Below are positions 17,240 through 47,699 of a stretch of DNA of 64,000 nt, piece after piece; position 1 is the first letter of the stretch; each line of letters starts with the position of its first letter. Under the pieces are notes generated by a model. That model saw only the letters and a program-made list of their open reading frames with translations, had not been told where the DNA came from and searched no databases. The position numbers and the translations under genes are program-made. The DNA is from Octopus sinensis. Lineage: Eukaryota. The stretch covers positions 22,258,001 to 22,322,000 of the forward strand of contig NC_043002.1 in NCBI RefSeq assembly GCF_006345805.1. The letters are read 5' to 3'.

Positions 17240-17980
17240 TAAGACCAAAGCCTCCCCACCAGAAATTACCAAAACCATGTAATGAAAAGAAATATAACAA
17301 GTAACTGCAGAATATGTGGAGATGGACAAGAAACAATATATCATATTATCTCTAGCTGCCCAGTCCTGGCTAAGAAAGAATATATTCACAGACATGACAG
17401 AGTTGGAACCTACATACATTGGAAGCTATGCCAACATTATGGAATAACAACAGAAAAAAGATGGTGGTATAGGCACACCCAGAAAAGGTCACAGAAAACG
17501 AAGAAAGCAACCATACTCTGGGATATGCCGATACACACACAGATAGAGAAATTAAGGCCAACAGACCAGATATAGTGTCAAGTATCATGAAGAAAAAAAA
17601 TGCTTTCTAATTGATGTATCAATACCGGCAGATGACAACGTGTCTCTCTAAAAGAAATGGAGAAACTTTCAAACAAAATACAAAGACCTGAAATAGAGGT
17701 AACCAGAATGTGGAATCTAAAAACAGAAACAATTCTATCATAGTAGGGCATTAGGCATGATAAAAAAATATTCAGACAAATACATAACAAAAACACCAGG
17801 ACTTACAAACACATATAACATACAGAAAATTGCACTACTAGGCACTGCACACATCCTACGCAGAACACTTTCCATACAATAACCATCAGAGCATCACAAC
17901 AAATCACAGCACATACCCAAGGCACACAGAGCTGCGCTCGGTAGTGAAGTGAAAGCACGCTATAAAAATAAAACTACTGA
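17240..17980 (+). mobile_element. R4/Dong 3' fragment, family A copy 2 (frameshifted)
   Basis: CRICGDGQETIYHIISSCPVLAKKEYIHRHD zinc knuckle, NRPDI endonuclease motif, same 3' UTR as A1 and A3. Confidence 0.9.
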
Positions 17981-18980: not shown

Positions 18981-19572
18981 TATATTCACAGACATGACAG
19001 ATTTGGAACATTCATACACTGGAAGCTATGCCAACATTATGGAATAACAACAGAAAAAGATGGTATAGGCACACACCAGAAAAAGTCACAGAAAACGAGA
19101 AAGCAACCATACTCTGGGATATGCCGATACACACAGATAGAGAAATTAAGGCCAATAGACCAGATATAGTTGTCAGAGATCACGAAGAAAAAAAATGCCT
19201 TCTAATTGATGTATCAATACCGGCAGATGACAACGTTTCTCTAAAAGAAATGGAGAAACTTTCAAAATACAAAGACCTGGAAATAGAGGTAACCAGAATG
19301 TGGAATCTAAAAACAGAAACAATTCCTATCATAGTAGGTGCATTAGGCATGATAAAAAAATATTCAGACAAATACATAACAAAAACACCAGGACTTACAA
19401 ACACATATAACATACAGAAAATTGTACTACTAGGCACTGCACACATCCTATGCAGAACACCTTCCATACAATAACCATCAGAGCATCACAACAAATCACA
19501 GCACATACCTAAGGCACAGTGAGCTGCGCTCGGTAGTGAAGTGAAAGCACACTATAAAAATAAAACTACTGA
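18981..19572 (+). mobile_element. R4/Dong 3' fragment, family A copy 3
   Basis: ORF 19028-19474 ILWDMPIHTDREIKANRPDIVVRD...LIDVSIP...KLSKYKDL (PD..D restriction-like endonuclease). Confidence 0.9.
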
Positions 19573-24140: not shown

Positions 24141-24577
24141 ATATATATATATATTCTCAATAAGGATATTCAAACCTCTTGTAGGGACACTTATTCAAGA
24201 TACAATGGTTTAATATATTAAATTATGAAGAGAAAATCCTCCAAGCAATATATTATTTAGAATATCGTAAGATATCAGACATTTTTATTGAGATAGAAAA
24301 CAGAGAGTTCTAATGGATACAAATTAGTTCATGAATTAGTCAACATATTAACCAACAATTATTTCTTTTCTCAAATAAAGTTAAAATTACATAATCTATA
24401 TAAAAATAGCTTTTTGCATTTTAAATACAGAATATATAAACATGTTCTATAGATTCCGAAAATATCCTAATGTAATCCTTATTATTCTCTGAAAACTCTG
24501 ATGATTTTCCTTATAAGGTATTTAAAATGCAGAAATTTATTTGTATCCATCAGAGTTTTCTAACTCAGTATATATAT

Positions 24578-25008
24578 ATTCTTCCCTGTGTTTGTGAAAC
24601 CCTTGTAACTCTGCCGTAAGGCTTCCATTTCCACACTCGCCAACTTAATTCAATTCGTCCTTAGTCGAAAGACACCTGTTGTTATGTCCTGTTATAATTT
24701 TTATTGTTTTTTTTGTTGTATTGATATTTGTGTAACGTTGTCCGTTTTTTCCGTCCTTGTTTTTTTATACATTGGCCGCTTTCTTCCAAGGAATCTAATG
24801 CTCTTAGCTTAGTTTTTCCTTGGGGCTGGTCAGATTGGAGCAATCTCAAGAATAATCAGCCGAAATTGCAAGGATAATCTGGTTCTTGACTGAAGATAGA
24901 AAACTTCGAGTGATCCGTCCTTGTTTTCTTTGTATCGTCTATCTGGATGTTTTGTTGTCCCTTTTTGTAACACCTAGTTGTCCGGTCGTTTTGCGTTATT
25001 GTCCCATT

Positions 25009-25010
<2 letters not shown>
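24578..25010 (+). mobile_element. (TA)n-flanked repeat family P1 carrying a permuted hammerhead-like motif
   Basis: 3' part recurs at 40540-40678 (-) and 47531-47692 (+). Confidence 0.65.
24811..24905 (+). ncRNA. Candidate non-circularly permuted hammerhead ribozyme with k-turn
   Basis: GCAAT-C-TCAAGAA..ATCAGCC-GAA-ATTGC..TTCTTGA-CTGAAGA. Five complementary helices (see findings). Confidence 0.55.
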
Positions 25011-25044
<34 letters not shown>

Positions 25045-25311
25045 TCTGTGTGAGTGTGTATAGGTATGTATGTGTGTATTTGTGTGCTTTATGCATGTAT
25101 TTATCATCCCACTATCGCGTTTCAAACGTTCTTGGTTTGTTAACATCTTCGTAACTTAGCGGTTCGGCGAAAGGGGCCGATAAGTTAAGTGCGAGCCTTA
25201 AAACGAAAGTACTGGGATCGATTTGTTCGAATAAACATTTCAAGGCGGTGCTCCAGCGTGGCCGCAATCCGCCGATAGAATAAAGTAAGAAGAAAGAAAT
25301 GCATAAATAAA

Positions 25312-25720
25312 TGGAGTGGCTGTCTGGTAAGTAGCTTGCTTACCAGCCACATGGTTCCGGGTTCAGTCCCACTGCGTGGCACCTTGGGCAAGTGTCTTCT
25401 ATTATAGCCTCGGGCCGACCAAAGCCTTGTGAGTGGATTTGGTAGACGGAAACTAAAAGAAGCCCGTCGTATATATGTATATATATGTGTGTGCGTGTAT
25501 GTTTGTGTGTCTGTGTTTGTCCCCTTAGCATTGCTTGACAACCGATACTGGTGTGTTTATGTCCCCGTCACTTAGCAGTTCGGCAAAAGAGACCGATAGA
25601 ATAAGTACTGGGCTTACAAAGAATAAGTCCCGGGATCGAGTTGCTCGACTAAAGGCGGTGCTCCAGCATGGCCGCAGTCAACTGACTGAATAAGTAAAAG
25701 AGTAAAAAGAGTAAAAAGAG
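25312..25720 (+). mobile_element. Full-length S2 CORE-like SINE
   Basis: tRNA head (TGGCTGTCTGG, GGTTCAGTCCC), CCTTGGGCAAGTGTCTT core, internal TA/TG microsatellite, LINE-like tail, (GAGTAAAA)n end. A tail-only copy lies at about 25100-25290. Confidence 0.9.
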
Positions 25721-35245: not shown

Positions 35246-35322
35246 GAATAAGAGAAAATAAACAGGGAGAATGAAAAAATTGTGGATTTAGCGATCATGC
35301 ATGCATTATGTATGTATGCATG

Positions 35323-35354
<32 letters not shown>

Positions 35355-35355
<1 letters not shown>

Positions 35356-36430
35356 TCGATTCTGTAGATAGGTACAAGATGTTTGAAATCCTTAAGCTCT
35401 ATGGGATACCAGACAAAATTATTACTGCCATCAAGGTCCTCTACACAGATACGTCTTCAACCATCTTAACCCCTGATGGAGAAACATCATCTTTCTCAAT
35501 CAAAGCCGGAATACTGCAGGGAGACACACTCGCCCCATTTCTTTTCATCATTGTTGTTGATTATGTGCTACGTATGTCAGTTGATACCATCTCTGGCAAG
35601 GGCTTTGAAATAAAACCAAGAAGAAGTTCCAGACACCCAGCTGAGTACTTGACAGACACTGACTTTGCTGACGACATCGCTCTTATCAGTGATTCTCTCT
35701 CCAATGCCCAGTCTCTTTTACAATCTCTTGAACAAGCCTCAAATTGCGTAGGTCTTTACCTCAATGAGGCCAAAACTGAATACATAAACAAGTGCCTGTC
35801 CAACAGTGATTGCATCATCCACACTCTCAACAGTGCGCCTTTAAATATGGTTTCTGATTATAAATATCTTGGGTCATACATATCATCATCTGGAAAAGAC
35901 TTTCTAACTAGAAAGGGTATGGCCTGGTCAGCCTGTAATGACATGCATAAGATCTGGTCATCAAATCTAAGTAGAGACTTCAAACTTGAAATATTCAAAG
36001 CCACAGTCGAACCAATTCTACTATATGGCTCAGAAACCTGGACGTTATCAAAGAAGCTTGAGAGGCGGTTGGATGGAACCTACACTCGCCTCCTTATGAG
36101 AGCTCAAAATCTCTCGTGGAGGCGCCATCCAACCAAAATGCAAATATATGGGAAATTACCACCTGTGTCATCTCTTGTGAAAGGTAGGAGAGTCCAGTTT
36201 GCTGGACATTGTTGTAGAGCTGAAAAAGAAGTAATTTCTACTCTTCTCCTCTGGAAGCCATCTACTCGCAACACCAGAGGGCGCACACTCTCCTACCCTG
36301 ATGTAATCTCCAGGGATACAGGCATCCAGCAACAGGACCTCCGTAATGCTATTATGGACCGTGAAGTCTGGCGTAACATAGTAAATTCCATTGTCTCGAC
36401 CACGGTCGAACAATGATGATGATGATGATG
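35355..36430 (+). mobile_element. 5'-truncated RTE-clade LINE, reverse transcriptase C-terminal ORF intact
   Basis: FDSV...GILQGDTLAPFLF...FADDIAL...YKYLGS...LLYGSETW. No stops over about 1060 bp. The stop runs into a (TGA)n tail. Confidence 0.9.
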
Positions 36431-40539: not shown

Positions 40540-40678
40540 ACTAGAAAATGGCACAAGAACACAACAGGCGATAACAAAACATCCAGACAGTTAGATGATA
40601 CAAAAAAGGACAAGAAAAAAGGACGAGTCATTCGGAGTTTTCTTTCCTCAGTCAAGTTACAGATCATCTTTGCAAATG
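40540..40678 (-). mobile_element. Truncated P1 copy
   Basis: Minus strand TTGC-aaa-GA-TGATCTG-t-AACTTGA-CTGAGGA-aagaaaact. Confidence 0.65.
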
Positions 40679-47460: not shown

Positions 47461-47530
47461 CATATATATGTATGTCTGTGTGTATGTGTGTGCGAGTGGG
47501 CGTGGGTATGGGTGTATTCATGTATATATA

Positions 47531-47692
47531 ACTGCCCGAAATGGTTGTGACGTCTGGTACTTGACTGAAGAAAGAAAGCTTCGGATGACCCGTCTCTTTT
47601 TGCCTGTCCGTCTGATTGTTGTTTCTCTTGTCTGCCTTTGTATCGTCTATCTTTCCGAATGTTTTTATAGTCCTCTGTTGCGTTTTTGTTCC
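47531..47692 (+). mobile_element. Truncated P1-related copy
   Basis: CTGCCC-GAA-ATGGT-tgt-GA-CGTCTG-g-TACTTGA-CTGAAGA-aagaaagct, with TA flanks. Confidence 0.65.
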
Positions 47693-47699
47693 ATATATA

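What the first reader, a model, noticed from the sequence alone, without database searches (positions are those of the whole stretch)
24811..24905. Candidate strand-scrambled (non-circularly permuted) hammerhead ribozyme with a kink-turn, family P1
Seen: all hammerhead core parts are present, but in an order no circular permutation gives. The order is P4a AGTTTTT (24811-17), P2a GGCTGGT (24824-30), P5a CAGATT (24831-36), GGA, P3a GCAAT (24840-44), cleavage-site C (24845), P1a TCAAGAA (24846-52), P2b ATCAGCC (24855-61), GAA, P3b ATTGC (24865-69), AAG-GA-T, P5b AATCTG (24876-81), P1b TTCTTGA (24883-89), CTGAAGA (24890-96), P4b GAAAACT (24899-905). The internal loop between P3 and P5 fits the k-turn consensus (3-nt bulge, tandem G.A/A.G, then U.G). 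Truncated relatives at 40.6 kb and 47.5 kb keep the 3-nt bulge + GA and CTGA[A/G]GA, and that core heptamer varies only at the free N7 position. Inference: the k-turn folds extended helix III back so the pseudoknotted core assembles in cis; otherwise it would have to act as a dimer. From memory, non-circular hammerhead permutations have been reported elsewhere, so novelty of this k-turn form in an animal repeat needs checking.
Basis: partly seen in the sequence, partly recalled or inferred. Interest (0 to 1): 0.92.

Follow-up and report, generated by a model that had tools for sequence, protein, structure and literature searches.

The report
Scrambled hammerhead ribozyme in animal repeat
A very abundant non-coding jumping repeat in this animal genome carries all the parts of a self-cutting hammerhead RNA in a strand order not described before, apparently folded back by a kink-turn; cutting is predicted and has an indirect footprint in the genome but has not been shown at the bench.

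Summary
The motif sits in a ~0.7-0.8 kb non-coding, retrozyme-like repeat that inserts into (TA)n; a 3'-half pattern has 11,693 exact matches against 15 for the reversed control. Across subfamilies P1, P2, P3 and P5 change compensatorily; P1, P3 and P2 rank 1-3 of 48 possible stacks. CUGANGA varies freely only at N7, and the cleavage-site base was C or A in all 133 copies tallied. The connectivity is type SGC (Eckert 2023), but opened between A9 and G10.1, a link that scheme treated as unbreakable, and closed by a k-turn. Of 101 copies picked on a downstream motif, 25 begin at -4..+15 of the predicted cut and only 1 in the next 20 bases upstream. That fits reverse transcription running off a cleaved RNA end. 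No cleavage assay, RNA-end data, autonomous partner or non-animal relative was obtained. I found no report in 9 literature searches, and the scan had not noted it elsewhere. New variant of a known kind.

The parts
24576..25010 (+). 5'-truncated copy of a ~0.7-0.8 kb non-coding retrozyme-like monomer, flanked by (TA)n at 24569-24579 and 25011-25041
   Evidence: monomer period 776-779 in L188
24664..24673 (+). GUC-GAAA-GAC hairpin (GNRA tetraloop) kept in several subfamilies; role unknown
24770..24785 (+). P4 5' strand (distal CAUUCG-type part and proximal GCUUUCUU); pairs with 24897-24912
   Evidence: 4 of 14 pairs with two-sided change; nested folds
24786..24823 (+).
   Evidence: P6-less junction in 37 exact copies
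24824..24829 (+). Stem II 5' strand, G10.1 = 24824, detached from CUGANGA
   Evidence: 3 of 6 pairs with two-sided change
24830..24836 (+). P5 5' strand (helix equivalent to the stem I/II interaction helix of type SGC; non-canonical arm of the k-turn)
   Evidence: 4 of 7 pairs with two-sided change
24837..24839 (+). k-turn non-bulged strand: 3n G, 2n G, 1n A
24840..24844 (+). Stem III strand ending in U16.1 (24844)
   Evidence: 4 of 5 pairs with two-sided change, 98% of cells paired; 6-bp forms
24845..24845 (+). H17; predicted cut 3' of this C
   Evidence: C in 109 and A in 24 of 133 copies; 5' ends of copies pile up just downstream
24846..24851 (+). Stem I strand 3' of the cut
   Evidence: 4 of 7 scored pairs with two-sided change
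24852..24855 (+). Short linker from stem I to stem II, as in type SGC; U-A-A at 24853-55 is 98-100% conserved
   Evidence: PMC10085705
24856..24864 (+). Stem II 3' strand (C11.1 = 24861) and G12-A13-A14
24865..24869 (+). Stem III strand starting at A15.1
24870..24875 (+). k-turn bulged strand: variable 3-nt bulge, 1b G, 2b A, 3b U
   Evidence: bulge identities 0.33/0.83/0.39; G 0.98, A 1.0
24876..24882 (+). P5 3' strand
24884..24896 (+). Stem I 5' strand and C3-U4-G5-A6-N7-G8-A9 (24890-96)
   Evidence: six fixed positions 0.95-0.98; N7 0.61 with A, G, U and C all seen
24897..24912 (+). P4 3' strand directly after A9; the first two bases often unpaired
47529..47694 (+). Short copy of a second family starting about 7 nt after the predicted cut and ending in (TA)n
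40561..40675 (-). Short copy starting in stem III 3' strand

Best explanation
It is a self-cleaving hammerhead in a new strand order, serving a non-autonomous, Penelope-type (retrozyme-like) retroelement. SHOWN by comparison: stems I, II, III, P4, P5 and P6; the full core; a k-turn-consensus loop between stem III and P5; head-to-tail monomers ending in (TA)n. INFERRED: the k-turn bends P5 back along the II/III stack, so that P5 reaches the distal ends of stems I and II and the doubly pseudoknotted core closes in one molecule. P4 (with or without P6) holds A9 and G10.1 together as a large bulge, at the place where Penelope hammerheads carry one extra base. INFERRED life cycle: tandem transcripts are cut 3' of H17 at successive ribozymes. 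The two ends of the released monomer stay clamped by P2-P5 and can be joined into a circle. A Penelope-like RT/endonuclease acting in trans primes at an internal UA run on a nicked genomic (TA)n. On linear RNA it runs off at the cut end and gives the short copies; on circles or uncut multimers it passes the site and gives longer and tandem copies.
For: Two-sided changes in 11 of 18 P1-P3 pairs, against at most 4 when partners are slid. P1, P3 and P2 rank 1-3 of 48 possible conserved stacks. On a tree, 12 of 14 branch-wise co-changes keep the pair (7 of 7 in P1-P3), against 165 of 1,201 for other column pairs. A prediction written before the second family was aligned matched for P3 and P2 and partly for P5. 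N7 is free and H17 is C or A in 133 of 133. Tandem G.A/A.G is kept in 21 of 22 representatives. The exception has U at 2n, the natural deviation reported for Kt-23 (PMC2790904, abstract). 25 of 101 5' ends lie at -4..+15 of the cut: 1.7%/nt against 0.29%/nt upstream (p 2e-9) and 0.40%/nt downstream (p 1e-5), with 1 copy in -24..-5. The excess holds without the +7..+9 copies (p 7e-4) and for non-TA junctions (p 3e-4); 0 of 20,000 constant-hazard simulations reach 25 in any 20-nt window. Tandem period 776-779. Type SGC cleaves in vitro (PMC10085705). A base between 9 and 10.1 is conserved in Penelope hammerheads (PMC4209133).
Against: No cleavage, RNA end or circle was observed; only contigs could be laid. 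The pile-up of 5' ends centres on +7..+11, not 0, and 14 of 25 have a TA flank (26 of 62 elsewhere), so microhomology shapes it. 63 of 88 copies at risk pass the site. Published A9/G10.1 insertions that I saw are 1-2 nt; here the gap spans the whole ribozyme, and no 3D model was built. The family is young, so many non-core positions are as conserved as the core, and co-change counts are small (1 branch for P2, 0 for P6). One subfamily with 1,033 exact copies lacks the 2n G. 6 of 22 representatives miss the 3b.3n rule for ion-induced k-turn folding (against PMC4382518). Two single old copies among the 22 have G or U at H17. No autonomous partner was identified.
Confidence: 0.72

Rival explanations
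1. Same core and same cut site, but it is active only as a strand-swapped dimer between tandem units or two RNAs, or only with a protein such as an L7Ae/15.5K-type k-turn binder or the element's RT.
For: Metazoan Penelope hammerheads act as dimers and weakly (PMC4209133). Tandem copies are common. Some subfamilies have a Watson-Crick 3b.3n pair, which is reported not to fold in ions alone.
Against: Stem III here is 5-6 bp with covariation, not the 1-2 bp palindrome that forces dimers. Type SGC, with the same S-G linker, cleaved during transcription. A dimer does not restore the A9-G10.1 link, so it removes no steric problem at that point.
Confidence: 0.13
2. A conserved but non-catalytic RNA structure (RT-recognition, packaging or promoter element, perhaps a ribozyme relic). 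The pile-up of 5' ends then comes from RT stalling or from UAA microhomology with (TA)n.
For: The backbone is broken at A9/G10.1. The peak is displaced 7-11 nt from the site. Most copies pass the site. There is no direct activity data.
Against: A relic would not keep an invariant heptamer with a freely varying N7 and a C/A-only site base through at least 10 subfamilies. A stall would be expected where RT enters the structure (+36..+50: 0.55%/nt), not at its far side with a sharp drop beyond the site. Other TA-rich spots upstream collect only 1-4 ends each.
Confidence: 0.12
3. Chance complementarity in an AT-rich repeat, with apparent covariation from shared ancestry.
For: Subfamilies are related. 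I chose the 22 representatives (of 167 distinct full-length copies) for diversity, and 10 of them came from a core-containing pattern search.
Against: 0 descriptor hits in 60 resampled windows. Tree-based test 12 of 14 against 13.7%.
Confidence: 0.02

Closest known systems
Type-SGC non-circularly permuted hammerheads (HRIMA-1 and variants; Eckert et al. 2023, PMC10085705)
   Same: Order site block - GAAA block - CUGANGA; short linker from stem I to stem II; an extra helix joining the other strands of stems I and II; two pseudoknots in the core.
   Different: The stem II strand that follows CUGANGA in SGC lies here at the 5' side, so block C is split, which that scheme assumed impossible. SGC's free ends are joined through a k-turn, and P4/P6 are added. 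SGC was found only in metatranscriptomes or metagenomes, not in genomes of known organisms; this one is a high-copy animal retroelement.
Non-LTR retrozymes of animals (Cervera & de la Pena 2020, PMC7229834; Li et al. 2026, 10.64898/2026.07.22.740005)
   Same: Non-coding tandem monomers with one hammerhead per unit, many dispersed and truncated copies, probable mobilisation by Penelope-like elements.
   Different: Those carry type I hammerheads and were found with type I descriptors. The monomer here is ~0.7-0.8 kb and targets (TA)n.
Minimal type I hammerheads in Penelope-like element pLTRs (PMC4209133)
   Same: Retroelement context; tolerated insertion between positions 9 and 10.1; G10.1-C11.1.
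   Different: Those have a 1-nt insertion, an almost absent stem III and dimeric action. Here stem III is stable and the 9/10.1 gap holds P4 and P6. Coding Penelope-like elements of this same genome appear to carry the ordinary minimal form.
Standard k-turns (Kt-7) and Kt-23 (PMC4382518, PMC2790904)
   Same: 3-nt bulge, tandem G.A/A.G, 3n = G or 3b = C in 16 of 22 representatives; the 2n = U variant matches Kt-23.
   Different: I found no paper placing a natural k-turn inside a hammerhead of a retrotransposon. Folding was not tested.

Membership tests
Hammerhead ribozyme | C3 U4 G5 A6 N7 G8 A9 with free N7 | tested here: met
   fixed positions 0.95-0.98 in 133 copies; N7 A/G/U/C
Hammerhead ribozyme | G12 A13 A14 and the A15.1-U16.1 pair; H17 not G | tested here: met
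   (0.92-1.0; H17 C109, A24); pair invariant in 22 of 22
Hammerhead ribozyme | Stems I, II, III flanking the core, with covariation | tested here: met
Hammerhead ribozyme | A9 covalently next to (within 2 nt of) G10.1 | tested here: not met
   A9 = 24896, G10.1 = 24824; same split in all subfamilies seen
Hammerhead ribozyme | Site-specific self-cleavage 3' of H17 | not testable with these tools
   indirect footprint only
Rfam hammerhead families (types I-III) | Match to a covariance model | tested here: not met
   0 hits at gathering score in the window; no hammerhead family up to E 5 in 6 loci
Type-SGC hammerhead | Order S-G-C, short stem I/II linker, interaction helix | tested here: met
   definition
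Type-SGC hammerhead | Intact block C (stem I strand-CUGANGA-stem II strand) | tested here: not met
   stem II strand lies 72 nt upstream of A9; not filed as a member
k-turn | 3-nt bulge followed by tandem G.A and A.G between two helices | tested here: met
   21 of 22 representatives; the exception is the Kt-23-like A.U
k-turn | Kinked fold and L7Ae-family binding | not testable with these tools
   needs FRET, probing or binding assay
Non-LTR retrozyme | Non-coding tandem monomers with one ribozyme each | tested here: met
Non-LTR retrozyme | Type I hammerhead | tested here: not met
   topology above; works like a retrozyme, not a member as defined
Non-LTR retrozyme | Expressed as monomer-length circular RNA | tested here: inconclusive
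   no run on record as RNA and no raw reads
Autonomous Penelope-like element | Own RT + GIY-YIG ORF upstream of the repeat | tested here: not met
   278 non-PLE-selected loci plus the window searched with a 782-aa ORF: hits in 7 loci. Those looked at (L014, L128 = L067, L374, L392) are nested or neighbouring; L108, L223 and L288 were not inspected

The most novel reading that the evidence does not exclude
A natural, active hammerhead whose catalytic CUGANGA strand is not linked to stem II (a fourth permutable block, outside the six-permutation scheme) and whose fold is closed by a k-turn. It would be the first non-circular permutation in a eukaryotic genome and would drive a retrozyme family of over ten thousand copies. 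It would imply that 'ribozyme-less' Penelope-type repeats in other animals may hide permuted ribozymes that current descriptors cannot see.
Probability: 0.65. Interest if true: 0.92.

Novelty: new variant of a known kind. Interest (0 to 1): 0.86.

Why it matters
It breaks an explicit assumption of the current classification of hammerhead topologies and extends non-circular permutation from environmental RNAs to an animal genome. It offers a concrete answer to a puzzle left open for type SGC, namely how the interaction helix and stem III, far apart in the crystal structure, can be joined by a very short link. It explains why type I descriptors and Rfam miss a very abundant ribozyme-bearing element, and so motivates a new search in repeats reported to lack ribozymes. 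The 5' ends of genomic copies give a rare in-genome readout of where a retroelement RNA is cut. The many natural subfamily variants (P6 present or absent, 5- or 6-bp stem III, A.G or A.U k-turn) are ready-made test constructs.

Tried and rejected
(2) Canonical minimal type I reading using the GAAA after CUGAAGA: stem II would be 2 nt and no stem I partner follows (sequence); rejected. (3) Element as the 3' UTR of a coding Penelope-like element: the GIY-YIG-like ORF next to L014 belongs to an older element into whose (TA)n the repeat inserted; L374 and L392 are likewise neighbours. (4) Relatives outside this lineage: 22 metagenome and 51 viral pattern hits. A relaxed descriptor passed 5 of 73, all viral, with 4-5 bp stems; I judged them chance by eye, the four related ones reading like coding sequence. 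(5) Expression: no RNA holder listed. Four runs were laid, all contigs, with no start or end information; no evidence either way. (6) Rfam: no hammerhead match; weak box C/D snoRNA hits below the gathering score over the k-turn region are not significant. (7) Nested folding gives mixed z-scores (-0.2 to -4.0 for 5 copies; -1.3 for the window copy) and cannot show the pseudoknots. (8) A first truncation script found no references because of a wrong spacing and was rerun. (9) Two papers on hammerhead variants were not held, so those variants could not be compared. (10) Pfam found RVT_1 in the 782-aa ORF and nothing in the 138-aa endonuclease-like piece; the labels 'GIY-YIG' and 'Neptune' rest on motif recall plus the CxxC description.

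Full report
1. Observation. Rfam gives no match at gathering score in the window and no hammerhead family up to E 5 in six related loci. A descriptor demanding CUGANGA, GAAA, UH and stems I-III in this order finds this one site in the window and none in 60 resampled windows.

2. Host element. The window lies in a 2.72-Gb genome. That it is an octopus-like animal is my guess from size and layout, not a tool result. The 141-nt core has 2,414 first-look candidates, of which 40 were scored at 94-100% identity. The 3'-half pattern has 11,693 exact hits against 15 for the reversed control. Copies share a right end in (TA)n and have ragged left ends; 87 of 101 have a TA run 40-200 nt past the tail motif. 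Full monomers are about 0.7-0.8 kb and show no long open frame in the 12 loci checked from the monomer start. They occur head to tail: L188 holds 2.3 near-identical units with period 776-779 and only a short TA run at the internal junctions. Several single copies carry a ~30-nt start of the next unit after (TA)n, and one has an inverted 5' piece. These are the marks described for Penelope-like insertions (10.1101/2021.04.23.441226, passages). Coding Penelope-like elements with RT and an endonuclease-like C-terminus are abundant in the genome and also end in (TA)n. By eye they carry ordinary minimal type I hammerheads, so they are candidate helpers. No coding element carrying the present ribozyme was found. 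The window copy is 5'-truncated and single. It differs from its subfamily majority at 7 positions, none in the core.

3. Structure. 167 distinct full-length copies fall into 10 clusters of two or more plus singletons. Before aligning the family of the 47.5-kb fragment I wrote down the partners it should have; stem III and stem II matched and P5 matched in its five paired bases. On 22 representatives that I chose for diversity, 11 of 18 pairs in stems I-III and 20 of 45 pairs overall change on both sides; sliding the partners gives at most 4 and 9. Among all 48 conserved stacks of 4 bp or more, stems I, III and II rank first to third. On a tree, 12 of 14 branch-wise co-changes keep the pair against 165 of 1,201 for other column pairs. 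The counts are small: P2 has one event and P6 none. Some subfamilies add a sixth pair to stem III on both strands. In one laid run with another organism code, both sides of the third stem I pair read as changed in 93% and 85% of depth, so relatives with the compensated form exist beyond this genome label. Instead the strand after A9 pairs with 24770-85, and 24786-823 forms hairpin P6, which one dispersed subfamily lacks (37 exact junction hits, including a tandem pair).

4. Core and k-turn. I tallied 133 copies not picked by the core pattern (they were picked by BLAST likeness or by a 3' tail motif). The fixed core positions are 0.92-1.0 conserved, N7 takes all four bases, and H17 is C (109) or A (24). 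Many other positions are equally conserved, so the telling features are the free N7 and the H rule. The loop between stem III and P5 keeps a variable 3-nt bulge and tandem G.A/A.G in 21 of 22 representatives. The exception, a subfamily with 1,033 exact copies, has U at 2n, the deviation reported for Kt-23, which still folds (PMC2790904, abstract). 16 of 22 have 3n = G or 3b = C, which permits ion-induced folding (PMC4382518, abstract and introduction); 6 do not.

5. Footprint of a cut. I took the first 100 listed matches of a motif lying about 60 nt downstream of the site, plus one extra found in a fetched stretch, and mapped each 5' end. 25 of 101 begin at -4..+15, 13 at +16..+50, and 1 at -24..-5. 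Loss rates are 1.7, 0.40 and 0.29 %/nt for the peak, the downstream stretch and the 200 nt upstream. The excess survives removal of the +7..+9 microhomology copies and restriction to non-TA junctions, and no constant-hazard simulation of 20,000 reaches it. The simplest reading is run-off of reverse transcription at a cleaved 5' end, with a few bases lost at integration. This is inference; the peak is not exactly at 0 and 63 of 88 copies pass the site, as expected if circles or uncut multimers are also templates.

6. Mechanism. See Best explanation. In the terms of Eckert et al. (PMC10085705; parts 2-6 of 8 read; supplement searched by terms), the molecule is type SGC with its two ends joined through G-G-A to make the k-turn, and reopened between A9 and G10.1. 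Those authors assumed that link could not be interrupted and built their searches accordingly, which would miss this form although RefSeq was searched. They also left open how the interaction helix and stem III can be joined by a very short link; a k-turn is a plausible answer here (inference, no 3D model). The 9/10.1 position tolerates an extra base in Penelope hammerheads (PMC4209133, parts 1-2 of 4) and in a viroid (PMC3705267, passages), which makes it the likeliest place for such a break.

7. Novelty. Nine full-text searches gave no report of this form. 'Type-SGC' occurs in one held paper, whose supplement has no 'octopus', 'mollusc' or 'kink'. Retrozyme papers describe type I motifs (PMC7229834, passages; 10.64898/2026.07.22.740005, parts 1-2 of 5; its supplements were not opened). 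Passages of PMC6765202, PMC13725137 and PMC10162972 added nothing closer. Most subscription papers are outside the library. Two papers on hammerhead variants were not held; from memory, one describes bacterial variants with an unusual stem II, which should be checked. No relative was found in metagenome or viral contigs, and earlier scan notes hold no look-alike.

8. Verdict. A real, conserved RNA structure that works like a hammerhead in a retrozyme-like element. It is not a member of any described hammerhead type, because the A9-G10.1 link is absent. New variant of a known kind; probability 0.72 for cis self-cleavage as described; interest 0.86.

Noticed in passing
L082-L102, about 60-120 nt before the terminal (TA)n: Abundant coding Penelope-like families (open frames up to 796 aa) appear to carry minimal type I hammerheads with the 3-8 pair changed to U-A or A-U; read by eye, not scored.
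   Followed up: partly
window 24664-24673; L058, L085, L188, L286, L392: A GUC-GAAA-GAC hairpin about 180 nt upstream of the site and a CACGTGAC box further upstream are kept across diverged monomers; possible tertiary contact and internal promoter element.
   Followed up: no
window 24853-24855: [quoted passage not shown]
   Followed up: no
L014, L067, L075, L085: The repeat has inserted into the (TA)n tails or 3' UTR microsatellites of coding Penelope-like elements, consistent with a shared target.
   Followed up: partly
L173 120-167, L166 144-192: In some subfamilies the bulged k-turn strand reads like a box C (AUGAUGA) and gives weak, sub-threshold hits to archaeal C/D RNAs.
   Followed up: no
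window 25313-25720 and 25057-25290: Two other high-copy short repeats flank the element on the right; the first looks like a tRNA-derived SINE (recalled likeness, not tested).
   Followed up: no
window 17243-17572, 18998-19471, 35292-36413: Open stretches that look like fragments of non-LTR retrotransposon proteins (restriction-like endonuclease type and RTE-like RT); not scanned.
   Followed up: no
L192, L193 (G000:C1:5.165-5.181 Mb): Four near-identical truncated copies spaced about 3.3-5.2 kb apart, probably a local segmental array rather than separate insertions.
   Followed up: no
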